Origin: Leucoraja erinacea
Taxonomy: Eukaryota
Length of the DNA: 64,000 bases
Direction of reading: 5' to 3'
NCBI RefSeq assembly: GCF_028641065.1
Contig: NC_073403.1
Span: 16,058,001 to 16,122,000, forward strand
The notes under the pieces were generated by a model, which ran no database searches, had not been told where the DNA came from, and saw nothing but the letters and a program-made list of their open reading frames with translations. The translations under genes and the position numbers were made by a program. Shown piece after piece: positions 17,392 to 61,726 of the stretch (its first letter is position 1; each line of letters begins with the position of its first letter).

Positions 17392-17407
17392 GTTGTGTAT
17401 CAGTATA

Positions 17408-22567: not shown

Positions 22568-22608
22568 GAAGTTTAAGATGAGAGAGGCAAGATTTAACAG
22601 GAACCTAA

Positions 22609-24169: not shown

Positions 24170-24236
24170 AGTTTCACTTTCCTGGAAGATGTCGAGTTGA
24201 TTGCTGCTTCGTCATTCACAGAAGGTTGCTTTCAGG
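24170..24236 (+). promoter_or_regulatory. IFI35: IFI35 promoter: overlapping ISRE and GAS, and putative non-coding exon 1
   Basis: AGTTTCACTTTCC (24170-24182) overlaps TTCCTGGAA (24179-24187); donor AGG|GTAAGT at 24237; CpG-rich context. Confidence 0.7.
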
Positions 24237-24990
24237 GTAAGTCCTTGAGTTTTCCACCCACCGCAATCCACCAAATGTTGACCAACTTGTCCCCAACCCC
24301 GATGTTCTGCCATGCTTAGTGTTTGATTTGTTAGGGACGCAAGATTTATGTGGGATGATCAATACTGGGGATCAATACTGAGGCGAACGGGACGGAGCTA
24401 CAGTTCCGTAACTGGTCCTGGGAGGAGGGGGGGGGGTCGATAGGTTTTAATGTCACACACCGGGAACATGCAATCTGCAAAAAAAAATTGGCAACTAATA
24501 CTTTATGGGAATGCATCGGGAGCGATCGCGGGGAGGGGAATCGAAACTGAAAGTGTTAAGGGTCCTGAGAAAATAACTTGCTCTTAAGGCAACTTTTAGC
24601 CTTGCCTTCCTTTGTGTTACATTGTGAAGTGTTCCCTCTGTAAAGTGTGGTAAGCATAAAAGATGACAGTAACAACTTTAGAAAGGATGCGCCTTTCGTA
24701 CGAATCCCATCCCTCCGGCGAGGACCATCGCCTCGGCGATTCAAGTGTCATCCAGACTGTTGTGAAATGCTGCCGGGGCTCAGATTTAGCCGCGCTCCCG
24801 GGCAGTGCCTTGCAGAAGGAGCCAGAGTTGACTTGCTTTACTCCTACAGCCACTCTTCGACCTGTGGTATCAAAAATGTACCCCCCATGGCCTATGTTCA
24901 CATCGTGTTGGTTACTCGCTGGTGACATGTAATGTGAAACTTAATATCTTTGTGACAGGTTTGCAATCGTGAAGCTGTGGAAATTATACC

Positions 24991-25020
24991 ATGGAATTTC
25001 CAATTGCTAGAATTGCATGG
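24991..25020 (+). CDS. IFI35: IFI35 putative first coding exon (MEFPIARIAW)
   Basis: Acceptor at 24957-24958, Kozak accATGG, donor GTGAGT at 25021; phase 0 fits the next exon. Confidence 0.65.
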
Positions 25021-25047
25021 GTGAGTCAGTAGTTCTTGAACTGACAG

Positions 25048-25048
25048 G

Positions 25049-25084
<36 letters not shown>
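25048..25084. repeat. (ATA)n microsatellite
   Basis: Direct inspection. Confidence 0.9.
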
Positions 25085-26574
25085 TATTTTATTGTCATTT
25101 GGTAACGAGATTTGGTATGCAGCTTCTTTCCGATAGTCATAACTTAAACAACTAATAAAATTTAGATACCCCGAGAAACATGATTTATATATATATATTT
25201 AAAAGAACAGTAAAACAGTCTAAAGTGTAAATATGTCTGTGCCGGGTCGGTGCGTGAATACAGTTCATGGGGGGGCGTTTGCCGGAAGACAGGAGTTCGA
25301 ACGGACTATTACAAGGGTGTGAGGAGTCTTTGTGGATGCTGATGGCCTTCCTGAGGCACCGTGTGCGGTAGATGCCCTCCAAGGCCGGTAGCTGTGTCCC
25401 AATAATCTACTGCACCCTGTGGACGACGCGCTGAAGAGCTCTCCTCTTCAGATGAAATATAATCAGGTAGAGGCCTGGTCAACCCTCTCACACTGCTTCC
25501 TCATTCAGTAACATTGATGCAGAACCTGTGACTCAAATCTGTTTTCCTACCTGTGGAGGAAGGAACTGCAGATGCTGGTTTAAACCGAAGATAGACACGA
25601 AATGCTGGAGTAACTCAAATGCTGAAGTAATCTCTGGAGAGAAGGAACTGGTGAAATTTCAGGTTGAGACCCTTCTTCAGTTTCGACCCGAAACGTCATC
25701 CATTCCATCTCTCCAGAGATGCTACCTGTCCCACAGAGTTACTCCAGATTTTTGTGTCTATGTTCTGCTTTCCTACCTGATCACAATCTATTTTCATTTG
25801 CATACTCTCCAGAAATCTACTGATCTAAATTACCTCAACACAAAAGTGGCCCAGTGGTGTAGCTGGTAGAGCTGCTGCCTCACAGCAGCACCAGAGTCCC
25901 CGGTTCAATCCTGCCCTTGGGTGCTGTCTGTGGGGGGTTTGGCTCCCTGTGACCATGTGGGTTTTCTCTGGGTGCTCTGGTTTCCTCCCACATCCCAAAG
26001 AGTGCAGGTTTGTAAGTCTGCAGTTGGCCCTAGTGTGTGAACAATTAAAGCTGGTCAGTGTGGACTCAGAGGGCCGGAAGGCACTGTTTCCATTCTGTAT
26101 CTCAAAACTAAATTAAAATAAATTGGTTAGCATCAATGGGAGAGAACTCCAAAGTTTTATAATCTGCTGTGTAAAAATTTCCTCATCAAAATCTTACCTA
26201 TCCAGATACTTAGCATCAGGTTCTGCATGATTCGAAATTCCAGCTGAAAAAATTGGCAGCAATCTTCCCGGAAGGGCTATTTGAAGTTAGCTATTTGAAC
26301 TCCTGGGCCTCCTCCACTGTCCACTGGAGGAATAGCACCTCAAATTTTGCTGGGGTAGTTTACACCCAGTGGAATGAACATTGAATTCTCTAACTTCAAA
26401 TAGCCCATGCTTAGGGCTAAAGGAATCAAAGGATATGGGGAAAAATCAGGAACGGGGTACAGATTTTAGATTGGCATATTGATTGGCATATTGAATGGCA
26501 GTGCTGGCTCGAAGGGCCAAATGTACCTATTTGTCTATGTGTAATCATGTCAGATCTATCTCCAAATCCCATTC

Positions 26575-27000
26575 TCCAGCCTCCTCCCCATGAACCCTGA
26601 CACCCACACTAATTAAGAATATACCTATCTCTGCCTTAAAAATATCCATTGACAGCCTCCACAACCTTCTGCGGCAAATAATTCCACAGATTCACCACCC
26701 TCTGACTAACAAAATTCTTCCTAATCTCCTTCCTAAATTCCTTAATTCTGAGGTTATTTAACTCTGGTCCTAGACTCTTCCACTCGTGGAAACATCTTCT
26801 CCTCATCCACTCTATCCAAGCCTTGCACTGTTCTGTATGTTTCAATGAAGTCCCCCATCATCCTTCTAAAACTCCAGTTAGTACAGGCCCTGTGCCGTCA
26901 AACACTCATCATATGTTAACCCACTCATTCCTAGGATCATTCTTGTAAACCTGAGCCAGCACATCCTTCCACAGATATAGGGCCCACAATTGCTCACAAT
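26575..27000 (-). mobile_element. CR1 LINE 3' fragment
   Basis: FVSQRVVNLWNYLPQKVVEA and RFTRMILGMSGLTYDE frames. Confidence 0.75.
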
Positions 27001-27019
27001 TGCTGTTTCTATTTTGCAG

Positions 27020-27094
27020 GGCACTTTCAAGAATCCACAGGAGCCTGCTATGAATGAGTTGCAAAAGCTGCAACAGGAAATAGAAGGCTGCAAG
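27020..27094 (+). CDS. IFI35: IFI35 exon, coiled-coil
   Basis: GTFKNPQEPAMNELQKLQQEIEGCK; ttttgcag acceptor, GTCAGA donor, phase 0-0. Confidence 0.8.
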
Positions 27095-28487
27095 GTCAGA
27101 GTGAAGTGGTATTTTGTAATTGTCAGGAGTATGAATTCCTCAATGCACTATAAATATGTTAGAGAAAATCTCATTCTGTTCAGTAATCCAGTGAAATTTC
27201 AAATGAGCATTCTTAGATGCATGTAATGCTACTGTAGGTCTCAGAAGGTTACTGTGCAGGTACTGCAAGCAATTAGGAAGTCATATGGAAAATGGTTCTT
27301 GAGAGTTTGGAGAATATGAATAAATAAATCTTGCTTAAATGACACGGCTTCGATTAGGTTAGTTTAGTTTATTGTCACGTGTACCGAGATACAGTGAAAA
27401 GCTTTTTGTTGTGCGCTAACCCATCAGCAGATGACTATACATGATTACAATCAAGCCATTTACAGTTTACAGATACATGATAGAGGGAATAACATTTAGT
27501 GCAAGATTAAGTCATGTAAAATCTGATTATGGATAGTCTGGAGGAATGAATCTTTTGCCTCAGGGAAGAGGCAACAATAATTTACTAGAAAGATTCCTTG
27601 GACTAGAGGTGTAGTCCTGAGAGGAAAGATGAAGGAAAAAGGTGTCTGGAGTTTGAAAGAATGGGTGGTGATATTAATGACTTGGATAGACTTCTTGAAG
27701 GACCATGGGGTGGAATCTGAGGGACTGATTCTCTTGACTGGAGAACCTGGAACCAATAGTCATAGCCTTAGTTTGAGGGTTGGGCAAGTTAGGACTGAGA
27801 TGAGATACTGTGGCGAATCTATGGAGCACCGTCATTTGTTGTGTGTAATTGAGCCTGAGGGGGATAGATTTTAGCATTCTAAGCCCATCAAGAGAAATGG
27901 AGACAAGGCAGTGAAATGGCTCTTGCATATGGACTCGGTGGGCTGCTCCGCACATACTTTACTGACCGGGGCGATTGAGCTTATGTATGGGGATAGCCTT
28001 GCAGATCTGTATGCAAGGCATAAATTTCACTGTACCCGGTACACATGACAATAAAGAAACCATTGACCATTGAGCATTGAAATGGATCAGGTGATCCTCT
28101 TGAATACTCGAACAAGCTTGTGGTCCAAGTATAGATGGACCTATCTCCTTGCTCTCTGATGAAACAACACACAGTGTCCATTCAACTTGTAGGTTCTGAC
28201 AGAATTGACTACACAGAAAGGAAGGAAACGAAAGAGTTTAAAATCTTTTTTCTAATATGCTGAAGTTCAGTGAAAATTAGAGTGAGACTGAACTGGGAGG
28301 GGCTGGTTAAGTCAGAAAAAGTCTCCATTAACACCAATATGCATTAAATGTAACAAGTAGAATGAATGAAAATGATGTGCATATACTCCAATTCTCTTGC
28401 ATCCTTTCCTAAATATTTGCAATTTTCCAACGCATTTGGGTCGACAAAAGGTATTCTGCAATGAAGCACTTTGTTTAATCCAACCAG

Positions 28488-28646
28488 ACCCGTTATAATG
28501 CAGTGCTAAAGAACAAGAAAGCCTTGCTCGCAGCAAAACTAGAAATCGAAGATACAACAGACGAATGTAATGCCCAGATTCAACGTTTCCAAAATAAAAT
28601 TGAGGACGACAAATTAAAAGATACAACTCAGAACCTACATCTTCAA
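28488..28646 (+). CDS. IFI35: IFI35 exon, coiled-coil
   Basis: TRYNAVLKNKKALLAAKLEIEDTTDECNAQIQRFQNKIEDDKLKDTTQNLHLQ; phase 0-0, donor GTTGGT. Confidence 0.75.
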
Positions 28647-29957
28647 GTTGGTATTTCTATAATTTTTTTAAAATATTTATTTGCGACTGGTAGCACTTCA
28701 TTGACAGGAAAATGTTGAGATAGTTCCATTTCCACTCCGTGCATGGTGCTTGGTGGCTGGAACAAGTTGATTCAATGATCAGGACAAGTCAAAACCTGAC
28801 AAGTGACAGAGGGACACAAAAAGCTGGAGTAACTCAGCAGGACAGGTACATCCTTGGAGAGGCTTCACTTCAGATAGCCCCGGCATTCCCCCTCTCTCTA
28901 TCCCTTCCCCACCCAAGTCGCACTAGCTACTCGGCTTCACCTCACAAACAGCTAACAATGTCCTGTTTCCTTTATCAGCGTTACTTTTTGCATATCTCTC
29001 GATCATTTGTTCTTTATCTCTCTATCATCGCCTATATCTCTAGATTCCCTTATCCCTAACCAGCCTCTAGATTCCCTTATCCCTAACCAGTCTCGACCCG
29101 AAACGTCACCCATTCCTTCTCTCCAGAGATGTTGCCTGTCCAGCTGAGTTGCTCCAGCTTTTTGTGTCTATCTTTGGTTTAAACCAGCATCCGCAGTTCT
29201 TTCAGACACAAGTGATAGGTGGATACAGATGAGGTGGGGGTGGGGTTGATTGATGGATGGGTGGAGTAAGTGACAAAGGTTAGAGGTGCAAAGGAGATAA
29301 AAAAAGGTGTCAGATAATGAAATGCAAATCTGTAAGAAGGGATGTAGCTGGAAGAGGACATGGGTGAGGGGAGCGAGGGGGTTAAAAAATGAGTGTAGGT
29401 CCCAGGGATGGGAGATAGACATATGCAGGAGGGGAAAGGAGCAGGGTGACTGGGTTGGTGGGAGATGCTGGGGGAAATGTGTGCACACTGGAGGTGGGGG
29501 GTGGGAGGGGGGGGGCAGGGGAAAGGGGGTTTGGATGGAAATGACTTGAAATTAGAGAATGATGGGTTGTGAGCTACCCATGCGGAATATGAGGTGCTGT
29601 TTTTTCAGTTTGCACATGGCCTCACTCTGGCAGTGGAGGAGGCCCAGGCAAGAACAATCTTTTTATGCATTTCAGTCACTGACGTTACAACTGGCACACC
29701 TTCACTGATGCAGCTTCCCAAATTCGGACTGAGATTTTGGAAGTGCCTTCCACTTCTGTTTTACTCATTCCTTTTTGCAAAATGAAAATTCTCAGTTGCC
29801 ATGAGTTACGTCCCTGTCATATGCAGTTCTCGTGAGCATGTGCATCATCCAGGAGTGAAACCTCTGTCCTGATCCTACTTCTCTTCCGTTGAAAGATCCA
29901 CCAAGGGTTTTGCATGTTTTTAAATGAACGCGTGTGTGTGTGTGTGCTATTCTGTAG

Positions 29958-30074
29958 GGGAAACTGAACGAGGTGGACAGTGAAATTGAAACGGTTACTG
30001 AGAGGGAGAATGCAGTAAAGGAAAAATTGGCCAAACTGGATGAACAGAATGCAAAGATGGAGTTACAGCTGCAG
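29958..30074 (+). CDS. IFI35: IFI35 exon, coiled-coil
   Basis: GKLNEVDSEIETVTERENAVKEKLAKLDEQNAKMELQLQ; AG/GTAAGA, phase 0-0. Confidence 0.8.
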
Positions 30075-43900: not shown

Positions 43901-45866
43901 AAGTGCTGGAGGAACTCAGAGGGAATGGACAGACGTTTCGAGTTGGGGCCCTTCTGCAGATTGATTGTAGTAGGGAAAGAGAAGGCTGGAAAAGAGATGA
44001 GGGCGAAACTAGACTTGGCAAGTGATAGATGAATACAGATGAGGGTTTGATTGGCAAATGGGTGGAATAAGAAGCATTTCTGTTCTAAAGATCGCTAAAT
44101 GCATCATCAGTAATCTTTACAGAATCTCATTTCTCTTATATAAGAAATGTTTTCTGCATTTGCTGTTTTGGAAAACAAAACAACAAAAACTGTTAATGCT
44201 AAATCTTAAAATCACAAGATAAAATGCATTTTAAAGACTTTAACATTATCATCAGGTTATTATGAATGATTTTCTAGCAGGATATTGAAAAAAATACAAA
44301 TAACCAGACAATGGCAACGCATTTTTTTATCAAAGGGAAATCATGTTTGATTTCTTTATTTGCTCTCATTGAAGAAGCACCGTGTAGTGGAGAAAGGGGA
44401 ACCAGTAGATGTGATATACTTGGTTTCCAGAAATCAAATCCATGATCTTTGTGAAAATGAAACTATATGGTATAGGAGGTAATGCGTCGGTGTGACTGAA
44501 AAAGTAGCTTTCAACCAGGAAATAGAGGGGCCATAAATGGAGACAAAGTGCTGGATGGGCAGCATCTCTGGGGAACATGGATGGGTGACGTTTTGGGTCA
44601 GGACCCTTCTACGGACTGATTGTAAGGGGGTGGGGGGAACCTGGAAAAGAGGTACAAAATCAGGTAAGTGATAGGTGGATACATGTAATGTATGGAAAAG
44701 CCAGCAATGAAAAGACCAGAAGTGTGAGATAAGGATAGAAGGGGCACGAAATGTGAAGCCAGAGGAAGGAATATAGGTGGAAGGGGATGGGAGGGGAAGG
44801 GAAACGCGAGGAATGTGTGCCCATCCATGTGGAGCACAGGGAAAATGAGGGGACGGGTGTGTGTAGGTTAGTTACCTAAAATTGGAGAATTCAATGTTCA
44901 TACCATTGGGTTGTAACTACCTGAGCAGAATATGAGGTACTGTTCCCCCTGTTTGCATGTGGCCTCACGCTGGCATTAGAGGCCGATGTAACGGAGGCCA
45001 CAACGGGTGCATCCATTGGGGTAGAATAGTTAGAGGTGCAGGTGAACCTGCCTCACATGAAGGGATCGCTGGGGTGGTGGGAGATATGTGCGTTGCACAG
45101 AGGTGGCAAGGGAACTGGGGGGAGAGGGGTTGCTGGTAGGGAAGGTATTACTTGAAATCAGAGAAGTCAGTGTTCTTGCGTTTGGTTGTAAGCTACCCAA
45201 GCGGAATATGAGTAGGAAGGACACAAAATGCTGGAGTAGTTCAATGGGACAAGCAGCATCTCTGGTGACGTTTCGGGTCGAGACCTTTTTTCAGACTGAA
45301 GACATTCCTTCTCTCCAGAGATGCTGCCTGTCCCGCCGAGTTACTCCAGCATTTTGTGTCTTATCTTCGGTGTAAACCAGCATCTGCAGTTCCTTCCTAC
45401 ACACGAATTGGGATGAGGAAGGTGTCTGGAACCGAAACAGCACCCATTCCTTCTCTCCGGAGATGCTGCCTGTCCCGCTGAGTTACTCCAGCATTCTGTG
45501 TCTGTTGCCAAGCGGAATACGAGGTGTCGTTCTTCCAAGACTGTCCCCCAAACGCTCCAGTGATTTCGGCCTCCTCTTGTTCCCCAGGCTGCCCGCAGCG
45601 GTTCAAATTCCGCCAGATTCCCGGGCCAACACTGAGGGTGTTTGGGACCTACGCTGGCGCTGCCGTGCCGGGGAGATGAGCCTGTCCCTGTCCCTGTCCC
45701 TGCCCCTGTCTCTGCAGAGCTGCCTGATGCTCCTTGCCTGCGGTTGCAAAGATGAAGCCCGCGTTACACAGAGAGAGAGAGCCGGAGCTCGGTGTGTCTA
45801 ACCCGGCCAGGTCTAGTCTCTTGCAGCGGGGATCAGACTCAGGGCTGCAGCCAGCCCTGAAATCAG

Positions 45867-45957
45867 ACTTTCACTTTCGATACTGATATATTCGCGGTTG
45901 CGTTTTTTCTTTTCTGTTTCTCCACGGATTCGAGGATGGTTCGGATGGTCGACAAAG
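45867..45957 (+). promoter_or_regulatory. ISRE-containing promoter and putative exon 1 of the RBM43/DTX3L-like gene
   Basis: ACTTTCACTTTC (45867-45878) and TTTCTGTTTC (45911-45920) inside a CpG-rich region (~45590-46540); donor AAAG|GTAAGG at 45958. Confidence 0.6.
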
Positions 45958-48779
45958 GTAAGGGCTCTGGTGTCCGTTTTTAAACCTGGTGGGACTGGCC
46001 GAAAAAGTAAACCCATTGCTAAACCCTTCGGTGGGGCTTTTCTCCGTCGGAAAGGAACGTGTGGGTGGCTACAAAAGAAAAATAAAATGGCAACATCCGC
46101 ATTTATGTAGTCGTAAACATCGCGAGCCTGGTCGACAGCAAGAGACCCCGCTTGTGGGGCTGGAGTTAGTTAGTTTGGATAAACAGCGCACAGGATGAGT
46201 CACCCTGAAACAGAATGTAATGTCGAGGGCTGGGGCCAGCGGAGATGTTCCACTGTGAGGGAGTGTGGCCTCGCTGGGTTAAGCTGTTCCAGAGGCCCGG
46301 GCTAATGCCTTCAGATTGCGCCGTAGCATAGTCTGAAGATTTGAGTCTGGTCGAAGCAACTAGTCGCCAACCCTCAGTGCGTCGCCTCCCAGTCTCCAGG
46401 TCCAGGGGCTGTGGCCGCTCGTCCCGTCTAGGAGTCTAGTCTGGCCCTCTAGGCTAGACTGAGGAAGGTGCCCCCGCCACGGGAGATGTTGAGCTTAGCC
46501 CCGGTTGCATACCGAGTGCAGCTTGGGCCAGCGTTCATCTCTTAACCAAAGCCAGAATTACTTCTTCTTGAGTGGTTCCCTCAGGATTGGAGACGACCAT
46601 TGCCTTCAGGTGGGTTGGGGGCAACTGATAGGGGGAGGAGGGGTCGGCGGACCCTGGCAGAGGTGGGCCAGGTGATGCATCTTTGGGGTGGGATAGGGGA
46701 GGTGTGAGAGGGGGTAGCTCTTTCCACCATTTGCACAGCATATTGTGTGCTGTTGAGGTGTGAGCCCAAGGGTCTAGAGTCATACACACAGAAACAGGCT
46801 GCCCAGCCCAAATGGATCATGCCGACCAAGATGCCCCTTCTCAGCCAGACCCAATTGCCTGCTTTTGGCTCATAGAAACATAGAAAATAAGTGCAGGAGT
46901 AGGCCACTCGAGCCAGCACTGCCATGCAATATGATCATTGTTGATCATCCAAAACCAGTACCCCGTTCCTGCTTTCTCCCCATATCCCTTTAGCCCTTAA
47001 GAACTATATCTAACTCTCTCTTGAATACATCGTATTCCTCACCACTCTGAACCTTTCGTATCTGTGTAAATATATCTTGGGTGCTGTTATCGTACCCGCC
47101 TCAATTATTTCCTCCGTTGGCTGGTTCCATATACCCACAACCCTCTGTGTGATAAAGTTGCCCCCTCAGGTCCCTATTGAATCTTTCCCCTCTCATCTTA
47201 AACCTCGGCCTTCTAGTTCTTATGTCCTCTACATTGGAAAGAAGATGGCTGATTTACAGCTAGACAATTAAATCGCCAAATAAACTGTGTAAGTGCTCCA
47301 AAAAAAGGCAATTTCTAAAGAGAGGAAGTCCTGTTGGTGTTTACAGCAATGCACCTTCCTGAACCTTAACATTCATTGTTCTTTGCTAGAAGCTGGCAGG
47401 CCAGCTATGCATTTCTAATCTTCTACTATGATTATTTATACCTTGGGCATGTTTGGACATGTTCTACTAAAGTCAATGAGACTGATCACATGAAAAATAC
47501 CAGTGCAGGGGAAACACTTCGTACCTGGGTCATTGTAGTAACCTTAGGAATCCTAACAATATATATTGCAGGTACCATATGGTAATTGTGTAGAAAGGAA
47601 CTTGTTGTATTCAGATTATTGTGGACCCTTTTAATTTTTATAGACACTCAATACCAAGCTCCTCATGCTTGTGTGTGCATTCCCTGGTTACTCTATTAAC
47701 AAATGACACAAAGTGTTGGAGTAACTCAGCAGGTCAGGCAGCATTTGAGCAGGACATAGATAGGTGATGCTTTGAGTCAAAGCCCTTTTTCTGATTGATT
47801 GTCCTGGGCGGAAGGAAAACTGGAAGAGATGAGGGCCAGGGCAAAGCATGGCAGATGAGGGGGGTTTCTGATAGGTAGATGGTCGGACAAAGGCCAGAAA
47901 TGAAAAGGATTAAAGAGTCGCGAACTGTGAAATTGGAGGAAGGAATGTAGAAGGGAGGTGAAGTGGAGAGGAGAAATAGGTGTGAACCTAGGTGGGGGCA
48001 CTGGGGAGAGGGGAAAAGGGTTATGTGAGGACCTAAAATTGGAGATTTCATTGCTCATACCATTGAGTTATTGTAAGCTACCCAAAATAAGAGGTGCTGT
48101 TCCTCAAGTTTGTGTGTAGCTTTACTCTGGCAATGGAGGAGGCCTTGGACAAAAAAGGCCAGTATGGGAATGGGAAGAGGACTTAAGGACTTAATAGGGT
48201 TAGCAATCGGGTGATTGGCACCGTTGGGCTGGAAGCTACCGTGGACTGACGAACAAGCTGTCTTGTGATCCTTCTCTCATCGCCAGCGCTTATTATAATA
48301 TTGATCATAAAGTGATCACGAGAGTAATCTGTATCTGGAATGAGCTACCTAAGGACGCTAGAGAAGCGGATGCAATTACGACTTTTAAAAGGCCTTTGGT
48401 TAGATATGTGAATAGGAAAGGTTTAGAGGGCGATGGGCCAAATGCAGACAAATGGCAGCAGCCAAGTATGCCAACTTGGTCAGTATGGACAAGGTGGGCC
48501 GAATGGTCTGTTTCTGCGCTGTACAGCTGTACGACTGTCCCTCGACAAATGTCAGACCCACCCCCAAGCATAGTTCTGGCTGCATGAAACTAAGAGCCTA
48601 AGTTGGATGAAGACAGAAATAGAAAACTTGCCTTCGTATAGTATCCTTCATATCTTATCAACAATCTATTGTGATTTACAGTCAATAACATAGCTTTAAT
48701 GCACAGGTACTGTTGTAAGGAAGGAAATGCAGAATTTGGTGTTTTGAGCTTAAACGATCCTTTTCTGTTGCAGTCTGAA

Positions 48780-48954
48780 ATGGAGAGGAGCGTACACGTG
48801 TCTGACCTCCCCAGAGGCTTTTCAAAGCAGAGCCTCGAAGACAAGCTCATGATTCATTTCTTGCGGACCAAGAACGGAGGAGGTGAAATCATCGACGTGG
48901 TGTTCCCCTCGGAGACACTCTCATCTGCTCTCATCATCTTTGAGGAAGCAGAAG
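48780..48954 (+). CDS. RBM43/DTX3L-like protein, coding exon 1 (RRM/NID-like domain)
   Basis: Acceptor at 48772-48773, gaaATGG; MERSVHVSDLPRGFSKQSLEDKLMIHFLRTKNGGGEIIDVVFP..ALIIFEEAE; donor GTAGGC, phase 1. Confidence 0.9.
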
Positions 48955-50463
48955 GTAGGCTGCAAAATGAAATTCCAGAAATAAAAGGCATGAAAATGCC
49001 AGCCATTCTCTGATGAAGTGAACATAACTTATTCCCAGCCACCCTGTTCCCTGTCCCTCCTTTGTCCTACATTTATTTCCCTTATATTCCCTCTCTATCC
49101 CCTCGCCCCTGTCCCCCTCCCCTCAGTCGCCATCCACCCACACTCCTCTCTCCGGCTTTCCATTTCACTCCTCCTCATCTCTCTTTATGTCTTTTGTCTC
49201 TTTTTCACCTCTAGCTCTTGTGACTTACTCCACCTCATCAACCAACCACCTACCCTCATCTGTACCCACCTATCACTAGCCAGGCTTTGCTTTACCGCAC
49301 TCTCCTTTCCGGCTTTCATCGCCATACTCCCATCTTTCAGAAGAAGGATCCCAACCCAAAACGTCATCGCTCCATTCCCTCCACAGATGGTGCCTGACCT
49401 GCTGAGTTCCTCCAGCACTTTATATTTTCAGGCTCATTCTAGCTTGGAACAAAAGAAGAAATGGAGAGCGGTTCAGTTGTCACTGGCATGGGTTTTGTTG
49501 GGGGTGCTTCATAATGATTTTGCTCCCTGCAATATTCCATAATGCCGTTCATGGCTTGCAGAGTATCCCTTTGTTTCCCATTCCTACCTGCTCCCTCTTT
49601 TTCCAGCCCTTGCCTCCACCACCACCCCTGCCAGTGTGTTTCAACACCCACCACCCTCTGTGTAAAAAACATACTAGGACTATCTCCTTTAAATTTTGCC
49701 CCTCTCACCTTGAAGCTAAGCCCTCCAGTCTGTGACATTTCTATCCTTGGAAAAGGGTTCTGACTGCCTACCCTTCATGTGAAAACACACTCTCTACCCT
49801 CTTTATGGACGATTAGACGTATCTGTGAGGGTAGTGAAGATGACAAAGGCTTGACCCAGGACCTCAGGTGATGCAGGTGAGATTACAGAGAACGAGATTG
49901 GATGCCTTTGTAACATCGAGTCAGAATGTCACTTCAGGGATAAATACGCCATGGATGCAGAAAGTAATCTGGTTCAGTAACAAACACTGGCCAAAGAAAG
50001 GTGTACAGTTGATGATGGAAATTCAAGCAACGTACACAGGGAAACTGACCCACTTGTCTGCAGATGGTTTGTCACACAGCAGGGTTTAGTTTAGCATGGG
50101 GGAATGCCTAATGCAAAGTCACCCACCTACACTCCGGGTTCTAACAGTGCCACCCACCCCACAGGTAATATGAATGGAACCAGGAACGTCCAGCATCTCC
50201 GAAGATCAAGGATAGGTGACATTTTGGATCAGGATCCTTGGTCACAGGGAGAACTTGCAGACTCCACACTGGCAGCACCAGCGGTCATGATTGAACCCAG
50301 GTCTCTAGCACTGCGAGTCTGCATTGCTAACCATTACACCATTGTGCCATCCCAGGTTTTACGTCTTGAGAACTCCTATTGATGGGCCAGATAATGACTG
50401 ACAATGTTAGCGAACATATAAGTCTATGGTCTTAAATATAATCGTTTTGTATTCCTTATTCAG

Positions 50464-50567
50464 TGGCTCAGCGAGTTCTCCAAATTGAAAACCATGTTCT
50501 TGCAATTAACGGGGAACAACACAAGTTAAAAGTGAAGTCCGCTAATACTGTGATCCAAGTTGATCAG
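50464..50567 (+). CDS. RBM43/DTX3L-like protein, coding exon 2
   Basis: VAQRVLQIENHVLAINGEQHKLKVKSANTVIQVDQ; phase 1-0, AG/GTAAAT. Confidence 0.88.
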
Positions 50568-52762: not shown

Positions 52763-55700
52763 GTCATCCCCCATGTTTCCATGACAATAAACTATGGAAA
52801 ACTCTATGGTGGGAGAAGATTAATAAGACAGTTTCAGAAGACGCATAAAGAAATTCACTTTGGTTTTAATCAGAAAGCAGAGCAGTGCACAGTGGCCGGC
52901 CCATTCTCAGCCATTAAGGAACTCAGCGGAGAGATTCATCCATTGCTCAGTTTAAACCCCGACCAAACCAATGTCGACCCCAGTGAAACTCAGCACCAAC
53001 AACACAAGAGCCAAGAAAGTCCGGCCATCGGTCGTTCAAACGGGAATGGGAAAGGTGCCCAGAAATCAAACGCAGGTTCTTACACCAAGGGGGACAATTT
53101 AGAATTGCAAACTAAGGCTGGAATGGAAAGTTCTGTTCATGCAACTGACAGGAAAGGCACTGATGTGCCACGGGACAAAGAGCAACATACAGGCACACTT
53201 CAGGATTACACTTTATTGATGGACTCTGATATTTTTCTGTATATTCTGAAATTTTGTAAAGACAGGTATGAAAGCATCCTGCTCAAATACATTGTGGAGG
53301 TGGTGGATGTCACTGAAGAAGGCATCACCATGGTCTATCTGCATGCAGCCCCTGGCTGTTTGGAGATCGCAACGTCACTGCAGCAGGCACATCAGGAGCT
53401 CTCTTATCTCTACCAAGAGTTTGAATCAATGCTTCGCAAAGAACAGATCGGGAAGGAGAGTCTAACTCATGACGCCAAACTGCTGCAGAACATCTACGTA
53501 AGCATCCAGGCACAATACCCCCAAATAAATTTCAACCAAGACGCAAATTATTTTTACTTAATAGGCACTTTGTATGATTGTTCCCTGGCCAAGAAGTATC
53601 TACAGGATTTGAAGGAGGATCTGGAAGCACGATCTCAGAAAGAAAAAGTTGTGGCATTAGGCAGTGGCCCTGTAAATGACCAGGCTAACACCAGCAATAC
53701 GTCTCACTCTCTGCAAGGATTTAAGGACGTCAGTCAAGTAGTATTTCCAAAGACAAGTGGCAGAAAGGAACACAAATTGGCTACAAACTTCAATGGTAGT
53801 GGTAACGTTGACAGTGCCTTTAAGGCAGGAAGCAGTGTGGCTAAGGACAATTTGGTTCCTAATCCTGACCAGACAGCTGAGCAACTGATGACAGGGTCTA
53901 CTAAGGTGAGAGGTCCACTGGTGCAAACCAGGAGTTGGGAAATGCAGCAAGTTCCACAGGACAGTGCATCCACCAAAGAGGCATTTACTAATGCTGACAA
54001 GGCATTAAGCATTGAAACAGGGCAGTTTGGTGGAAGCAACAAAGAGTCTCATACCAGGAGCAGCAAAGATTTTTCTATGTTGACGGATCAAACCGAGCTA
54101 CTGAGAAATCCTGACAAAACAGGCAGTGACATTTTATTCCAGGGAGGTGGAGATTCTTCCAATCTCTTTACAAATAAAGGACAACAGGACAAAAGTAGCA
54201 AAGGGCGTGGCCCTGTGAAGTCCCACCACTCAGAAACATCAGCAGGGACTCTCTTTCATCAGGGAGACCTGCTGGACACCGTTTCTCCAGCTAAAGGTTC
54301 AGAACGTCAATCCACCAAAACATCTTTGCGAAAAACCAACAGTTTCTCTGGATGCTCAAAATCAAAGCGGTCCGGAGAAGCTGTCCATAAATCCCAGGAA
54401 AAGCCCGCTGAAGTAGGTCAGACTGAAGCAGTGACTGTCACTGAAGAGCTTCTGATAGATTCTGATGTGTGGTCTTATCTGAAAGACATCCATGATGTCA
54501 CCATAAGAGAAATTACAACCAGAAATGTGGTTTTGGTAAATGAGCAACTGCTGGGAGAAACGACAGTGCTGATGTTAACAGCACTGAACAGGGACAATGT
54601 CACAGCTGCCAAGGAGGACATTCTGTCACTTTACACATTGGTCATGAAGCATTTGACCCAACATCGTCTTCCTTACAGAGATCTTGGTATTGAAGAGTGC
54701 ACAGAGAAAACTGTGGAAGAATGGAGGAGCACATTAACAAAAACATTCCCCAAGGTAAAATTCATTGCTTCGCAACGTGGCTTCCATGTTATTGGCACGT
54801 ATGAACATTGCTTGAAGGTGATGGAAGCTGTTAACCCCGAGTTAAGTTCGAGAGCTTTGGAAGACTTGTCCTGGATGGACATTGCGCCCACAAGTTCTAA
54901 TCAGCAAGCGTTACTTGACGATGTTAATGTTCAGGGCACAGAGAGAGAGAACTTCACCCGATCGGCTGATGGTTTCTCATCCTTGGGTCGAGCCAATAGA
55001 CCTGAGGGCATCAACACTCCAGACTTCCACAGGGATGGCCATGAATTGAATTCAAGGCAGGAATATGGCCCATTTATGGATCAGAAGAGATCACCAAAAA
55101 CTCTCGATGAGGGGAATGGTATTGAGTCATTTCTAGACCAGGCTGATTCTAAGGGTCAGAAGACAATCAAGCAGATGGGAGATGTAGAAGGAGTCAAGAC
55201 AAGGAAGACATTACCAGATAAATTCCATCTTACAACCAGTAGGCTAACGAAGGAAGGCCAGTGGTACAATAAGGAGACCAGTTTGCAACGCAATAAGGTG
55301 GATAGTGCAACGCAGTCATTGCCAACGCTTTCTTATGCCGATAGGTCAGCCTGGTCATTGCATCAAAGAAGCAATGGTCAATATATCGCCGATTCTGCTT
55401 TCGATTCCAAAGGCCAAATGCAAGCAAACTATGTGCAGCAACAAAGTGAGAGCAATGAGACAGTGCTGCAAGAAAGCAAGACCATGAGAAACCCTCAGCA
55501 AAGCCAATGCAGAAGTCCAGCTATAGGAATGGATGCACTGGAGCCGGGCGAATCAACATCAGCATGCTACAACTGCAAGAAAATGGGCAAGCCCTCAAAG
55601 CTGGGCTGTGGCCACTTATTGTGCAAGGAATGCCATACAGCCAATCAAAGTTGTCTGATCTGCATTCAAAATGCTGTTGCAAATAAAAATGAAATGCAAC

Positions 55701-55804
55701 GCCAACCTACTATGAAGCTTGCAGTGCTGAATATTCCATTAAGTGGATATAGCAGAGAAATGACCTTGCAAATAATCTACAACATCCCTGATGGTATCCA
55801 ACAG
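52763..55804 (+). CDS. RBM43/DTX3L-like protein, 3042-nt coding exon 3 (KH-like units, disordered linkers, C3HC4 RING, start of DTC)
   Basis: Uninterrupted 1014-codon frame; acceptor at 52761-52762, donor CAG|GTAAGA; RING CYNC..CGHLLCKEC..CLIC at 55565-55663; Deltex motif LSGY..TLQIIYNIPDGIQ. Confidence 0.93.
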
Positions 55805-56320: not shown

Positions 56321-56603
56321 GACTGACTGACTGACGGGCCTGTTTCCATGCTATATGACTCTATGAGACCAACATGCCCTGTACTGAGGCCCTAGTAGTG
56401 CGACAATGTGGAGCAGGATTGCCTTGGACATCCCCGCCATTGAACCAAGATCATGTGTAAGCTGCTATGGCCCGAACCACCTCACGTTCCTGAGCAGTCT
56501 CGTCATCCTCTATTCTCGGCCACAAGGAGGAGGCAAGGAATGGAGGAACAAATTTGCAGATCCTCACTCAGAGTTTTAACCTTTCATTTTTCTTTTTTAA
56601 AAG

Positions 56604-56815
56604 GGGGGTGATCCAAACCCAGGGGAGCCATTTAGAGGAGGGGAGTTTAAAGCCTATTTGCCTGACAATCTCGAAGGAAAGAAGATTTTGATGTTGCTAC
56701 AGAAAGCTTTCGAGACACGCCTGATCTTCAAAGTGGTGTCCGAGTCTAGAAGGCAAGCCTACGTGACATGGAATGACATTCCTCATAAAACAGCCATAAT
56801 GGGAGGTAAAGATAT
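56604..56815 (+). CDS. RBM43/DTX3L-like protein, coding exon 4 (Deltex C-terminal domain)
   Basis: GGDPNPGEPFRGGEFKAYLPDNLEGKKILMLLQKAFETRLIFKV..VTWNDIPHKT..GG, Deltex_C motifs; not in the ORF track; phase 0-2. Confidence 0.93.
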
Positions 56816-56954
56816 GTAAGTCAATTTTGTTTCTCTCAGTTTGATTATTCAAGTGTCAAGAGTGATTTATTGTCACGTGTCCCAGATAGAACAAATAAAT
56901 TCTTATTTGCCGCAGCACAACTGAATATGTAAAGATAGCACACTGTAAACAATA

Positions 56955-58350
56955 TAGAAACATGGAAAAATAGGTGCAGGAGTAGGCCATTAAGCCCTTC
57001 AAACCAGCACCACCATTCAATATGATAATGGATGATCATCTAAAATCAGTACCCCATTCCTGCTTTTCCCCCCCATATCCCTTGACTCCTTTAATCCTAG
57101 GAGCTAAATATAACTCTCTTGAAAAATCCAGTGAATTGGCCTCAACTGCCTTCTGGGTGAAAAGGTTTTTCCTCATCTCAGTCTTAAATGGTCTACCTCT
57201 TATTCTTAAACTGTGACCCCTGGTTCTGGACTCACCCAACATTGGGAACATTTTTCTTGCTTCTCGCCTGTCCAATCCTTTAAGAATTTTATATGTTTCT
57301 ATTCTATAAGAACCCCTCATCCTTCTAAATTTCAGTGAATATAAGCCCAGTCGACACATTCTTTCATCATATGTCAGTCCCGCCATCCCTGGAATTAACC
57401 TGGCGAACCTACGCTGCACTTTCTCAATAGCAATAATGTCCTTCTTCAAATTAGGAGACCAAAATTGCACACAATACTCCAGGTGCGGTTTCACCAGGTC
57501 CCTGTACAACTGCAGTGGGACCTCCTTGCTCCTAAATTCACATCCTCTTGCAATGAAGGCCAACATGCCATTAGTTTTCTTCACTGCCTGCTGTATCTGC
57601 AGGCTTACTGTCAGTGGCTGATGCACAAGCATACCCAGGTCTCGTTGTGCACTATCCCTTTTCCTAATCTGACACCATTCAGATAATAATCTGTCTTCCT
57701 GTTCTTGCCACCAAAGTGCCAACCAGTTCTTCCTGTTCTTGCAACCAAAGTGCCAACCAGTGCCCCCCCCCCAATACCACTTGCTCTAATTTTACACACT
57801 AATCTCTTGTGCGGGACCTTGTCAAAGGCTTTTTGAAAGTCCAGATACACCACATCCATTGGCTCTCCCTTGTTTTACTTGTTACATCCTCAAATAATTC
57901 CAGAAGATTAGCCGAGCATAATTTCCCCTTCAAAAATCCATGCTGAATTAAACCGATCCTGTCACTGGTTTCCAAATGCGCTGCTATATCATCTTTAACA
58001 ATCGACTCAGGCATCTTCCCCCACTACCGATGTAAGGCTAACTGGTCTATAATTCCCCGTTTTCTCTCTCCCTCCTTTCTTAAAAAGTGTGGTTACATTG
58101 GCTACCCTTTTGGAAAATGATCACCAATGCATCCACGATTTCTAGGGCCACCTCCTTGAGTGCTCTGGGATGCAGACCATCAGCACCTGGGGAGTTATCT
58201 GCCTTCAGTCGCAACAGTTTACCTAACACCATTTCCTGACTAATGTGGATTTCCTTCAGTTCCTCCCTCTCACTAGATCCTCGGTCCCTTAGTATCTGGG
58301 AGATTGTTTGTGTCTTCCTTCATGAAGACAGAACCAAAGTACTTGTTTAA
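56955..58350 (-). mobile_element. CR1 LINE, 3' ~1.4 kb, frameshifted
   Basis: QHGFLKGKLC, DVVYLDFQKAFDKVPHKRL (RT), LVKPHLEYCVQFWSP. Confidence 0.9.
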
Positions 58351-60277
58351 TATAATAAACCAGAACAAATCCAATGTATATATAGACACACAAACATAGT
58401 CACACATAAACACACACACACACACACACTGTATATATATGTACACATACTTATGTACACATAAAAAACGAACAACAATAGTGCAATAATAACAATAATA
58501 TTCAATTATTACACCTGTCGGGGCTATAGGAGAAGCCATGATCGGGCTTAGCTTTCTCCATGTTACACTCAAGTCTCACAACCAGACCTTGGTTGGAGAG
58601 CTCTATCTTGCACTAAATGTTATTCCCTTTGTCCTGAATCAGTACACTGGACGGCTTGATTGTAATCATGTATAGTCTGTCCCCAGACTAGATGGCATAA
58701 CAAAAAAACGTTACACTGTATCTTGGTACGTGTGACAATAAACTAAACTAAACTGGAGAGAGAAAGAGTAGATCAATGCTGACAACGACTACATTCCTGC
58801 CAAGTACAGCTACTTGCTACGAACAGAACAATTGAATTTATTTTTAAACCTTTTAATAATTTAAAACAAAAACAAACTAAATGGTTTATGTTCCATTAGT
58901 ACGTGCATTGAAACCGTATCTTGATTTCAAAGTCACATTTTATTTTATCATTGAAAAGACATTTGGCCAGATGTATGGACTGAATGGGTTAGACTGCTAT
59001 GGGGCCAAATACAGTAAAGGGACTAGCCCAATATGTCACCTTAGACACAGTGGGCCAAAGGGCCTGTATCTGTCCCATATAGCTCTCTGTCCCCCATATC
59101 TAAATTGGTACATGAACTCATGTGATGATGTAGGTTTAGAGGACACACAAATATATAAACCAATGTTAATCAAATCCTGATCTCAAAACTTTGGATATAA
59201 CTATTTTTGAACAAATGTATTTTTGTACTGTTCAAGGAGGGATACCATGTATGTGTGGAGAATGCCATTAATTTAGTTTAGTTTAGAGATACAGCCTGAA
59301 ACAGGCCCTTCAGCCCACCGAGTGCACGCTGACCACCGATCCCTCGTTTTCATCAGCTCTATGTTATTCCACTTCTGCATCCACTTCCTACACGCTAGAG
59401 GAAATCCACCGAGACCAATCAACCTACAACTGTGGGTGGGAGGAAACCAGAGCACCTTGAGAAAACCCATGCGATCACAGGGAGAACGCGCAAACTCCAC
59501 ACAGATAGTACCCGAGATCAGGACCAAGCTTGTGTCTCTGGTGCTGTGAAACAGCAGCTGTGCTGCCCCCAAAAGGGTTATGGGTCTTACCTTTTGGCCT
59601 AGAACTTACTCCAGGGTTTGAGGCTGAAGGGATGTAACAGCAGTAAACCACCAGCTGCAGATTTGGACTGGGTTACACTGAACCAGGATCCCTGGCGCTG
59701 TTCCCAATCGTGGTGGGCACCCACACTAGTCTTCTCTGGAGGTCTAAGCAAGATGATCTACAGCACATGTGGGATCTTGGCCCCTGAAAGCTCACAGAAT
59801 GTGGAAATATCTGCTGTTGTCAAGCCTGCTGTTGTTTTATCCACAACACAGTGGTTGTTACAGGCTGTGAAGTGCACTGCAACATCCGGGGCCAAAACCT
59901 ATTCCCAAATCGGCTATGAATCAAAAAAAAATACTGGAACTCGACAACAGGTCAGGTTGCATCTGTGGACAGTGAGAGACGGGTAACAATTTAGGTGGAT
60001 GACCTTTGGAAGCTGGAGTAGATCTGATGTAGAACTGATTGAAGTGTAAAATATGGCTGTGAAAACGAAAGGTTAGCAATTGGTTTAAGGTCAGAGTGAT
60101 TTGAGAACAACAGGAAAGTGGGTGTGAAGTCAACGGGAGCAGGAAATGGATTAATACCATTATTTGAAGGTGTTTGAAATCTTAAATTGTTGGGAGTTGT
60201 GTAGCTCAGTCGAGAACGTTGTAATGTGGGCCAGTAAAAGAGTGGCGTTTAATTTATTTTCACATGTACAGAGTTAC

Positions 60278-60948
60278 ATAGAAACACAGAAAATATTTGC
60301 AGGAGTAGGCCATTCAGCCCTTCGAGCCAGCACCGCCATTCAATATGATCATGGCTGATCATCCAACATCAGTACCCCGTTCTTGCTTTATCCCTCGATT
60401 TTGTAAGCCCCAAGAGCCAAATCTAACCCTCTTGAAAACATCCAGTGAATTAGCCTCCACTGCCTTCTGTGGCAGAGAATTCCCCAGATTCACAACTCTC
60501 TGGGTGAAAAAGTTTTTCCTCATCTCAGTCTGAAATGGCCTACCACTTATTCTTAAACTGTGAGCCCTGGTTCTGGACTCCCCCAACGTTGGGGAACATT
60601 TTCATGCATCTAGCCTGTCCAATCACTTAAGAATTTTATATGTTTTTATAAGATCCCCTCCTATTCGTCTAAATTCCAGTGAATACAAGCCCAGTTGACT
60701 CATTCTTTCATCATATCTCAGTCCCGCCATCCCGGGAATTAACCTGGTGAATTTACACTGCACCTCCTCAAAAGCAAGAATGTCCTTCCTCAAATTAGGA
60801 GTCCAAAACTGCACACAATATTCCAGGTGCAGTTTCACCAGGGCCCTGTACAACTGCAGTTGGACCTCCTTGCTCCTACACTCAAATCCTCTCACAATGC
60901 CATTAGCTTTCTTCATTGCCTGCTGTACATGCGTGCTTACTTTCAGTG
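60278..60948 (-). mobile_element. CR1 LINE 3' fragment
   Basis: LYRALVKLHLEYCVQFWTP and FFTQRVVNLGNSLPQ frames. Confidence 0.85.
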
Positions 60949-61656
60949 TTTCTGGAGCCCCTGGTTAGTGTAAAGCTGTGTTGTATCCTTAATCAAAACT
61001 GTAAATCTCATCAGCTTGATTTCCAGTTATTACCCCTCATCTCCTGATATCATGCATATTACTGCCCCTGAATATTATTGGTAACGTATATGGTGACCAA
61101 AATAAGGGGAAGCAAAGACAGCAAGTGGTTGATAATTAGACCTGGCACCGAGGCTTGGTGTAGACAAGATCAGCTCATTTTCTGCTTGAGTAGCTTACAA
61201 TCCAACGGTATGAACATTGAATTCTCCAACCTTAGTAATACTCCGTCATTCCCATTTGTCCCCCAGCTTCCATCCCACCTGCTGTGCACCCATCTCTCCC
61301 ACCACCCCAGTCACCCCACTCCTTTTCTTTCCATCGCTCCCTGTTCTCACTCTCCCATCCCTGAGACTCATAGTTCTTCTTATCCACATTCCACTTATTT
61401 CCCCACCCCCTCTGGCTTTATATTTCACTGGCTTTATATCTGACACTTTTTGCCCGCTAGCCTTTGATGCTTACTCCATCCATTTGCCAATCAAGCCACC
61501 CATCACTTGCCAGGCTTTCTAACCCCCCTCCCCCCCTCCGTTTCTCCCTCCACAAATGGAGCCTGACATTTCCAGCATCTGTAGTATTTATTTTTCTGCT
61601 TCAATTCTAAGTGTTATCACTTCTAAATAATAATCAGGGACTCTGTTTCTTCACAG

Positions 61657-61726
61657 GAATGGTTATCCCGACACACTCTACTTGAGGAAGGTTTTGTTAG
61701 CTCTGAAGAGCTACGGGCTTCAGTGA
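61657..61726 (+). CDS. RBM43/DTX3L-like protein, last coding exon
   Basis: (M)NGYPDTLYLRKVLLALKSYGLQ*, matching the Deltex terminal GYPDxxYL helix; phase 2 fits; total CDS 3603 nt (1200 aa); AATAAA at 61831 and 62014. Confidence 0.9.

What the first reader, a model, noticed from the sequence alone, without database searches (positions are those of the whole stretch)
24170..61726. Tandem ISRE-driven pair IFI35 + RBM43/DTX-like gene: candidate interferon module
Seen: both adjacent, co-oriented genes have ISRE motifs just upstream of a first-exon splice donor (24170-24182; 45867-45878 and 45911-45920), and both encode the DKLxIHF..KNxGGE module. Known: NID domains mediate IFI35/NMI homo- and hetero-oligomerisation, and DTX3L is interferon-induced. 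Inference: the two products are co-induced and may bind through their NID-like domains, linking IFI35 to a RING-DTC protein.
Basis: inference. Interest (0 to 1): 0.72.

Follow-up and report, generated by a model that had tools for sequence, protein, structure and literature searches.

The report
Interferon-induced dead Deltex beside IFI35
Next to the interferon gene IFI35, this skate carries an unstudied gene, kept from sharks to birds, that is built like the antiviral ubiquitin ligase DTX3L but has lost the residues that do the chemistry, so it probably works as an interferon-induced scaffold rather than an enzyme.

Summary
The window is a skate locus, RUNDC1-RPL27-IFI35-gene B, all on +. A 12-bp ISRE lies 54 and 79 nt before the first donor of each gene; RNA places gene B's ISRE inside exon 1. 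Gene B (1200 aa) is the orthologue of fish si:busm1-163l24.3, named from sharks to birds, with no mammal among 120 hits. It has the DTX3L layout (NID/RRM, five KH-like domains, RING, DTC); its front third resembles RBM43. Published tables show minnow ifi35, nmi and RBM43 induced by interferon, and gene B 2.4-fold in one of two cell lines. The DTC catalytic His is absent in 165 of 165 family domains and the Glu in 164 of 165; 0 of 155 RINGs keep both E2-contact residues, against 52 of 68 in other Deltex hits. Yet the DTC is its best-kept domain, and most of the NID dimer face is nearly invariant. Best reading: an interferon-induced pseudo-Deltex scaffold, paralogous with the NMI-RBM43 pair. Binding to IFI35 is untested (about 0.4). 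No earlier scan note covers it.

The parts
24170..24182 (+). ISRE (AGTTTCACTTTCC) at the 5' end of IFI35
   Evidence: only match to the strict AGTTTCNNTTTCY consensus (recalled) in the window
24183..24236 (+). 3' part of IFI35 non-coding exon 1 (start unknown), donor GTAAGT follows
   Evidence: sequence only; not covered by the RNA lay
24543..24554 (+). second 12-bp ISRE-like site, IFI35 intron 1
   Evidence: function untested
24959..25020 (+). IFI35 exon 2, ATG at 24991
   Evidence: start resembles those of Pristis, Rhinoraja and Narcine IFI35
27020..30074 (+). IFI35 exons 3-5 (27020-27094, 28488-28646, 29958-30074): N-terminal coiled-coil-type region
   Evidence: tblastn of transcript-derived P0022
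32581..40951 (+). IFI35 exons 6-10 (32581-32728, 34824-34939, 36783-36969, 40121-40233, 40751-40951 with stop): NID repeats; whole protein 381 aa
   Evidence: named IFI35 orthologues at 66-82% over exon 8
45718..45957 (+). gene B non-coding exon 1 (5' end at or before 45718-45783), in a CpG-rich patch; carries an 8-codon upstream ORF from 45936
   Evidence: table 8 (X6 record 12, X1 record 3)
45867..45878 (+). ISRE/IRF-E (ACTTTCACTTTC) inside gene B exon 1
45911..45920 (+). 10-bp GAAANNGAAA core (minus strand) in a pyrimidine run; weak
48774..50567 (+). gene B exons 2-3 (48774-48954 with ATG at 48780; 50464-50567): the single NID/RRM-fold domain, split by a phase-1 intron at the same position as in both IFI35 repeats
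52763..55804 (+). gene B exon 4 (3042 nt): five KH-like domains without GxxG, three long disordered linkers, decayed C3HC4 RING, start of DTC
56604..56815 (+). gene B exon 5: DTC core; Pro stands where DTX3L has catalytic His707
61657..61726 (+). gene B exon 6 to the stop: Asn for Tyr719, Ala for catalytic Glu733; protein 1200 aa

Best explanation
IFI35 and gene B are two separately promoted interferon-stimulated genes in tandem, each with its own ISRE at the 5' end (sites shown; induction shown for fish orthologues, inferred for the skate). Gene B is the si:busm1-163l24.3 family: a sixth vertebrate Deltex-type gene with the exact DTX3L domain order, sister to RBM43 in its first 380 residues (shown by profile, feature and fold searches). 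It is most likely a pseudo-ligase: the RING can no longer engage an E2 and the DTC cannot activate ADP-ribose or nucleic-acid hydroxyls (residue losses shown; loss of activity inferred). The protein would then act as a scaffold or competitor in the interferon-induced PARP/Deltex and NMI/IFI35 network: dimerising through the NID alpha-1 helix, binding partners through KH-like domains as DTX3L does, and using the well-kept DTC as a binding surface (all inferred). The NID partner may be IFI35 or NMI (about 0.4): gene B keeps the basic residue of one salt bridge but never its acidic mate, which IFI35 and NMI supply. The pair mirrors NMI-RBM43, so a two-gene cassette was probably duplicated in the early vertebrate genome doublings, one copy losing RING-DTC (RBM43) and the other being lost in mammals (inferred; the human gene orders are recalled).
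For: Identity: 21 hits, many named si:busm1-163l24.3, 85% to Rhinoraja; birds, turtles, gharial, tuatara, lizards, amphibians, paddlefish and eel. Architecture: Pfam DTC 123.5 bits, NID 43.7, KH_DTX3L 37.6, all over cut-off; model with five KH-type units; DTC Z 18.4 to DTX3L, N-domain Z 10.6 to RRMs, KH4 Z 10.7; DTX3L is RRM + five KH-like + RING + DTC (PMC11080071); nearest Atlas cluster RBM43 at 0.90, 175 features. Dead DTC: H707, Y719, E733 align without ambiguity to P, N, A; H707A abolishes, E733A impairs, Y719A is defective (PMC11460948); His 0 of 165 and Glu 1 of 165 family domains against 66 and 62 of 85 others; family DTCs form one branch, SH-aLRT 100, 72 of 156 rows. Dead RING: complete C3HC4 in 25 of 155, both E2-contact residues in 0 of 155, against 54 and 52 of 68 others. 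Yet mean identity to 40 bony-vertebrate rows is 0.44 for DTC and 0.42 for NID against 0.24 for RING. Induction: minnow cells, interferon 24 h: ifi35 log2FC 2.9/3.1, nmi 2.7/3.2, RBM43 1.3/1.4, gene B 1.27 (adj p 1e-29) in the viperin-null line; sea bass brain with nodavirus: ifi35 rank 59, gene B rank 245 of about 23,400. Dimer face: positions D153, K154, I157, K161 of human IFI35 are D 147, K 146, I 145, R 147 of 147 scorable family members; E156 is acidic in 0 of 147. Linkage: IFI35 and gene B share a contig length in 4 of 4 cartilaginous fishes with both listed; a chicken gene-B record is filed as an IFI35 isoform.
Against: No induction data for any cartilaginous fish. Gene B is absent from the wild-type interferon table (cut-off 2-fold), so induction is modest; the direction in sea bass is not visible in the held tables. 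No enzyme assay exists; the skate RING keeps all eight zinc ligands, and UniProt labels the family a RING-type E3 (automatic). Some DTC domains outside the family also lack His or Glu (12 of 85 lack both), so loss is not unique. The dimer-face residues could be kept for homodimers or for folding; gene B also lacks one of the two bridges' acids at E149 in the skate (Gln). The RING consensus for E2 contact is recalled, not from a call. No named RBM43 sequence was in hand, so the sister relation and genome-doubling origin were not tested on a tree.
Confidence: 0.62

Rival explanations
1. Co-induced neighbours that do not touch. The pair is a relic of a tandem duplication; gene B homodimerises through its NID or KH1 and works with other partners (PARP14/PARP9-like proteins) through KH-like domains. 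Compatible with the pseudo-ligase reading.
For: DTX3L uses KH-like domains for homo- and hetero-binding. Induction of gene B and RBM43 (about 2.4-fold) is much weaker than that of ifi35 and nmi (6-9-fold). Mammalian IFI35 works with no gene B in evidence.
Against: An invariant Arg at the K161 position without an acid at E156 in 147 of 147 members fits a hetero-pair better than a homodimer (inference). Linkage seems kept from sharks to birds.
Confidence: 0.45
2. Gene B is an active, atypical E3 ligase for protein lysines, as the databases label it, having given up only the ADP-ribose chemistry; IFI35 could serve as adaptor.
For: All eight zinc ligands are present in the skate and 24 other members; RING region folds with pLDDT about 80; IFI35 is reported to promote ubiquitylation of RIG-I and Nrf2 (introduction of PMC13196095).
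Against: 130 of 155 members lack a complete RING pattern, some lose it outright; none has both E2-contact residues or the basic residue after the last Cys; Pfam RING models score under cut-off.
Confidence: 0.12
3. Gene B is a nucleic-acid binder (RRM, KH and DTC pocket together) that reads viral or ADP-ribosylated RNA without modifying it.
For: RRM and KH folds; the DTX3L DTC binds ssDNA and ADP-ribose; the pocket Trp and HKT motif are kept in 90% or more of 55 rows.
Against: No GxxG loop in any KH segment; the adenine-stacking Tyr/His/Phe is Asn in 141 of 165.
Confidence: 0.18
4. The ISRE in gene B is not functional in the skate; fish induction is weak spill-over from the IFI35 locus.
For: Site lies in the 5' UTR and departs from the strict consensus; three other 12-bp sites lie elsewhere in the window; not in the wild-type minnow table.
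Against: Placement by both first donors is unlikely by chance; gene B has its own CpG-rich promoter; strong significance in two fish data sets.
Confidence: 0.15

Closest known systems
DTX3L (Deltex-3-like; PDB 3PG6), partner of PARP9 and PARP14
   Same: Domain order RRM, five KH-like without GxxG, RING, DTC; DTC 44% identical, Z 18.4; interferon-responsive; sits beside another interferon gene.
   Different: Separate DTC branch; lacks H707, Y719, E733 and RING E2-contact residues; N-domain is an NID-type RRM with the NMI/IFI35 dimer helix; long disordered inserts; tandem with IFI35 rather than paired with PARP9; no mammalian member found.
RBM43 (fish si:dkey-154b15.1) and the NMI-RBM43 locus
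   Same: NID + KH_I_RBM43 front end; interferon-induced to a like degree; one human SNP maps to both RBM43 and NMI, matching the recalled tandem.
   Different: RBM43 ends after about 350-480 residues, with no RING or DTC.
IFI35/NMI family (NID; PDB 21NG, 21NH, 21OT)
   Same: Gene A is a plain IFI35 orthologue. Gene B's first domain matches the solved NIDs and shares an intron position with both IFI35 repeats.
   Different: Gene B has one NID, no coiled coil, and no acid at the E156 position. PMC13196095 states that NIDs exist only in NMI and IFI35; gene B and RBM43 contradict that.
si:busm1-163l24.3 (database entries labelled uncharacterised or 'RING-type E3 ubiquitin transferase')
   Same: This is the orthologue.
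   Different: The E3 label is automatic and is contradicted by the residue survey; no full-text paper names the gene.

Membership tests
Deltex E3 ligases | C-terminal DTC domain | tested here: met
   PF18102 123.5 bits, cut-off 25; Z 18.4, rmsd 2.0 over 127 residues to 3PG6
Deltex E3 ligases | RING zinc-ligand pattern directly before the DTC | tested here: met
   complete C3HC4 in the skate, but in only 25 of 155 family members
Deltex E3 ligases | RING E2-contact residues (hydrophobic in first CxxC, Pro in last CxxC; consensus recalled) | tested here: not met
   both in 0 of 155 family members, 52 of 68 other Deltex hits; skate has Asn and Leu
Deltex E3 ligases | DTC catalytic His and Glu (DTX3L H707, E733) and pocket aromatic (Y719) | tested here: not met
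   P, A, N in the skate; His 0 of 165, Glu 1 of 165, Tyr 1 of 165; requirement
Deltex E3 ligases | ubiquitin transfer activity | not testable with these tools
   needs an in vitro assay
DTX3L subfamily | RRM + five KH-like domains before RING-DTC | tested here: met
   (KH4 and the RRM confirmed by fold match; KH1-3 and KH5 by secondary-structure order and profiles)
DTX3L subfamily | orthology to DTX3L | tested here: not met
   own DTC branch with support 100 on a quick tree of 134 columns; sea bass lists a DTX3L-like gene apart from it
RBM43 family | NID followed by RBM43-type KH domains | tested here: met
   PF26774 on 20 of 21 hits; Atlas 0.90 with 175 features
RBM43 family | protein ends after the third KH domain; neighbour of NMI | tested here: not met
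   1200 aa with RING-DTC, neighbour is IFI35
RBM43 family | sister position on a tree | not tested
   no named RBM43 sequence was obtained; unnamed P0096 (RBM43-like at 0.89) groups with gene B on a long branch
IFI35 (gene A) | N-terminal coiled-coil region plus two Pfam NIDs; closer to IFI35 than NMI | tested here: met
   NID 169.9 bits; 66-82% to named IFI35, 47-48% to NMI; tree
NID dimerising domain (gene B) | alpha-1 interface E149, D153, K154, E156, I157, K161 | tested here: inconclusive
   skate Q, D, K, M, I, R: 4 of 6 kept; family D/E at 149 in 121 of 147, acid at 156 in 0 of 147
Interferon-stimulated gene (gene B) | ISRE at the 5' end | tested here: met
Interferon-stimulated gene (gene B) | induction by type I interferon | tested here: inconclusive
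   orthologue 2.4-fold in 1 of 2 minnow lines; virus-responsive in sea bass; no data for the skate

The most novel reading that the evidence does not exclude
Non-mammalian vertebrates have a sixth Deltex paralogue that is a double pseudo-enzyme and docks on IFI35/NMI through a hetero-NID helix, acting as an interferon-induced brake or adaptor of ADP-ribose-ubiquitin signalling. The IFI35-gene B and NMI-RBM43 pairs are copies of one ancient two-gene cassette, which makes human RBM43 a truncated DTX3L relative and predicts an untested NMI/IFI35-RBM43 complex in people.
Probability: 0.3. Interest if true: 0.75.

Novelty: new variant of a known kind. Interest (0 to 1): 0.55.

Why it matters
The Deltex family is counted as five genes whose DTC catalytic residues are called conserved. 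A sixth, kept from sharks to birds with both active surfaces lost but the DTC still the best-conserved part, points to a non-catalytic role for DTC domains and corrects an E3 label on hundreds of database entries. It ties the orphan NID of IFI35/NMI to the RRM-KH scaffolds of DTX3L and PARP14, gives a candidate missing subunit of the interferon-induced NMI/IFI35 speckles, and yields a cheap test in human cells (RBM43 with NMI). It may also matter for antiviral immunity in farmed fish and poultry, where the gene is present and unstudied.

Tried and rejected
Complex prediction: Rhinoraja IFI35 residues 122-353 with gene B residues 1-90 gave no verdict (scores 0.01 and 0.00, mark 0.34, alignments not used by the tool, controls not folded); this is evidence neither for nor against binding. 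No whole genome is held for the window, so downstream neighbours such as VAT1 could not be checked; 61727-64000 shows no coding exon that I could name. Accession-based adjacency in other species could not be obtained. No RNA holder was listed as on record as RNA; the four runs laid were swamped by repeats (15 of 1826 joints shown), so IFI35-to-gene B read-through, which would be in frame from exon 9 to exon 2, was neither seen nor excluded; depths do not allow ranking the genes. The ATG at 45936/45945 as gene B's start was rejected: it is out of frame with exon 2 and stops after 8 codons. A first IFI35 model missed exon 4 (corrected). N-terminal IFI35-like extensions on gene B proteins: none among 288 proteins. 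Supplement searches with no hit for gene B: PMC6261255, PMC11357929 (ifi35 also absent from both, so uninformative), PMC9788611, PMC11591593. Full-text searches: 'busm1-163l24.3' 0 papers; RBM43+interferon+IFI35 5 papers and RBM43+NMI 10 papers, by listing gene-list or GWAS studies; RBM43/KH domain/DTX3L/PARP14, 20 of 27 listed, only one mentioning RBM43. The careful DTC tree did not finish; the quick tree is quoted. Two look-ups of earlier scan notes gave nothing on this locus.


Full report
1. The locus. The window is vertebrate DNA rich in repeats; the nearest named proteins are from the skate Rhinoraja longicauda (85%), so it is a skate. Four genes lie on the + strand: the last exon of a RUN-domain gene (144-1016; Pfam RUN; RUNDC1 by recalled gene order), RPL27 (motifs at 11477, 12641 and 17353), IFI35 and gene B. 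IFI35 has nine coding exons from 24991 to 40951, 381 aa, with canonical splice sites and no internal stop, checked against a transcript-derived protein and named orthologues. Gene B has five coding exons from 48780 to 61726, 1200 aa; P0001, from a 4346-nt contig, covers all four coding junctions.

2. The observation. Both 12-bp ISREs are where stated, 54 and 79 nt before the first donors. The window holds 5 such sites against 1.05 expected; having one within 100 nt of both donors has a chance near 1e-5 (pattern chosen after the fact). RPL27's promoter has none. The third motif (45911-45920) is only a 10-bp core, of which the window has 11 against 4.6 expected. Reads were laid on 36700-56690 only: a 435-nt contig runs 45783-45957 and joins 48774, and another reaches back to 45718, so gene B's motifs are in the 5' UTR. 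These runs may be from a close relative rather than the same species, and their RNA nature is a guess by the tool. IFI35 exon 1 was not covered.

3. What gene B is. It is the orthologue of fish si:busm1-163l24.3. A profile of 14 members found 126 proteins; the 120 listed include birds, turtles, gharial, tuatara, lizards, caecilians, newts, a frog, paddlefish and eel, and no mammal name (only 8000 candidates were scored, some rows are unnamed, and the query held no mammal, so loss in mammals is likely, not proven). Pfam gives NID, KH_DTX3L and DTC over cut-off. The AlphaFold model (55 sequences; mean pLDDT 63, domains near 90-95, three linkers under 50) shows an RRM fold, one KH unit, two KH pairs, a RING-like knot and a DTC, confirmed by fold matches for the RRM, KH4 and DTC. 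That is the published layout of DTX3L (PMC11080071, passages). The first 380 residues are nearest to RBM43 clusters. Its NID is interrupted by a phase-1 intron four residues after a conserved Phe, exactly as in both IFI35 repeats, which points to one ancestral two-exon module.

4. It looks catalytically dead. Against the DTX3L DTC the alignment puts Pro, Asn and Ala at H707, Y719 and E733 (numbering from the chain's end at residue 740, consistent). In DTX3L, H707A abolishes, E733A strongly impairs and Y719A is defective in nucleic-acid ubiquitylation (PMC11460948, section 8 read). Among 250 full DTC domains from the 288 proteins held, the family has His in 0 of 165 and Glu in 1 of 165, the others in 66 and 62 of 85 (family defined by KH-profile score, plus 10 fragments added by hand; partial DTCs dropped). 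On a quick tree of 156 domains the family is one branch of 72 rows with support 100. The RING is complete in 25 of 155 members; none has both E2-contact residues or the basic residue after the last Cys, against 52 and 29 of 68 other Deltex hits (consensus recalled). Still, DTC (0.44) and NID (0.42) are the best-kept domains, the RING is at 0.24. Selection thus keeps a DTC that should not catalyse. Against this: 12 of 85 outside domains also lack both residues, the skate RING keeps its ligands, and no assay exists.

5. Co-induction. In fathead minnow cells given interferon for 24 h (PMC11218377; passages and supplement file 13 seen), ifi35 rose log2 2.89 and 3.15, nmi 2.67 and 3.18, RBM43 1.27 and 1.43 in wild-type and viperin-null lines; gene B rose 1.27 (adj p 1.4e-29) in the null line and is not in the wild-type table, whose cut-off is 2-fold. 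In nodavirus-infected sea bass brain (PMC12246263; section 12, passages, and the held part of the supplement), ifi35 ranks 59 and gene B 245 of about 23,400 (adj p 1.4e-12); it is not found in the held part of the head-kidney table; the tables that give direction were cut off. IFI35, NMI and RBM43 are shared influenza-responsive genes in four birds (PMC10011077, one passage). The zebrafish ISG catalogue names ifi35 and dtx3l in its text but not gene B (10.1101/693333, passages); its supplements are closed and may list it.

6. Do they bind? Crystal structures show NIDs dimerising through helix alpha-1 by E149, D153, K154, E156, I157 and K161 (PMC13196095, parts 1-2 of 6 read). Gene B has Q, D, K, M, I, R there. 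Of 199 family proteins, 147 could be scored (52 lacked the matching stretch): D 147, K 146, I 145, R 147, but never an acid at 156, which all 8 IFI35/NMI central NIDs have. A surface so fixed suggests a partner, and the lone Arg fits a hetero-pair with IFI35 or NMI. This is inference; homodimers or folding could explain it. I put binding at about 0.4.

7. History. IFI35 and gene B share a contig length in Pristis, Rhinoraja, Scyliorhinus canicula and Narcine (4 of 4 with both listed). A 1151-aa chicken gene-B protein is filed as an IFI35 isoform, which suggests overlapping gene models; sea bass ids of gene B and vat1 are five apart (weak). One human SNP maps to both RBM43 and NMI (PMC12382563, passages), and the mouse genes fall in one interval (PMC3432065, passages). 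From memory, human NMI-RBM43-RND3 parallels IFI35-VAT1-RND2. The simplest account is one NID-gene plus DTX3L-like-gene cassette doubled early in vertebrates. An unnamed 1700-aa protein (P0061) with RING and the same dead DTC branches deep in the family. This was not tested with named RBM43 sequences.

8. Novelty. Both genes are in databases; IFI35 is ordinary. No full text names gene B; a 2026 study of Deltex evolution treats five paralogues and mentions neither it nor RBM43 (10.64898/2026.04.23.720386, passages; supplements closed). Subscription papers were not searchable. I file gene B as Deltex-derived, not as a Deltex ligase: a new variant of a known kind. Verdict: observation confirmed, co-induction likely (about 0.8), pseudo-ligase likely (about 0.8), direct binding open (about 0.4); interest 0.55.

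Noticed in passing
window 45936-45957 joined to 48774-48778: An 8-codon upstream ORF spans gene B's first junction and stops one base before the main ATG; it could damp translation.
   Followed up: partly
window 40233 and 48774: The IFI35 exon 9 donor and gene B exon 2 acceptor are both phase 0, so a read-through splice would give an in-frame IFI35-gene B fusion; not seen among the joints shown.
   Followed up: partly
window 52763-55804 (P0001 residues 425-430, 609-616): Two short motifs survive in otherwise unconserved disordered linkers: KLAxxF-like (129 of 199) and a basic R-x-x-S-x-S motif (136-142 of 199), resembling a kinase or 14-3-3 site (recalled).
   Followed up: partly
window 32581-34939 and 40751-40951: IFI35's first and last NID halves look like the two halves of a second, circularly permuted RRM flanking the central one.
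   Followed up: no
window 144-17400: RUN-domain gene last exon and RPL27 (CpG island 9500-10000, GGAAGTGACGTC box near 9551), the usual upstream neighbours of IFI35; no ISRE core in that promoter.
   Followed up: partly
P0033 (chicken XP_024999787.1), P0216, P0219: Bird gene-B proteins of about 1150 aa are named 'interferon-induced 35 kDa protein'; bird expression counts for IFI35 under that annotation may mix the two genes.
   Followed up: no
P0082, P0103, P0113, P0121, P0126, P0131, P0153, P0161, P0164, P0173 and P0095: Unnamed proteins with two or three tandem DTC domains, often with one copy lacking the His or Glu; a separate branch on the DTC tree.
   Followed up: no
P0061 and P0096: Unnamed deep-branching relatives: 1700 aa with extra KH units, RING and dead DTC; 937 aa with KH units and no DTC (RBM43-like, 0.89). 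Possibly jawless-fish or early RBM43 forms.
   Followed up: partly
window 21798-22604, 57036-57785, 60623-60964, 6588-7484 and many introns: Decayed LINE (CR1/L2-type reverse transcriptase ends) and SINE-like repeats, highly transcribed as a class; named from recall.
   Followed up: no
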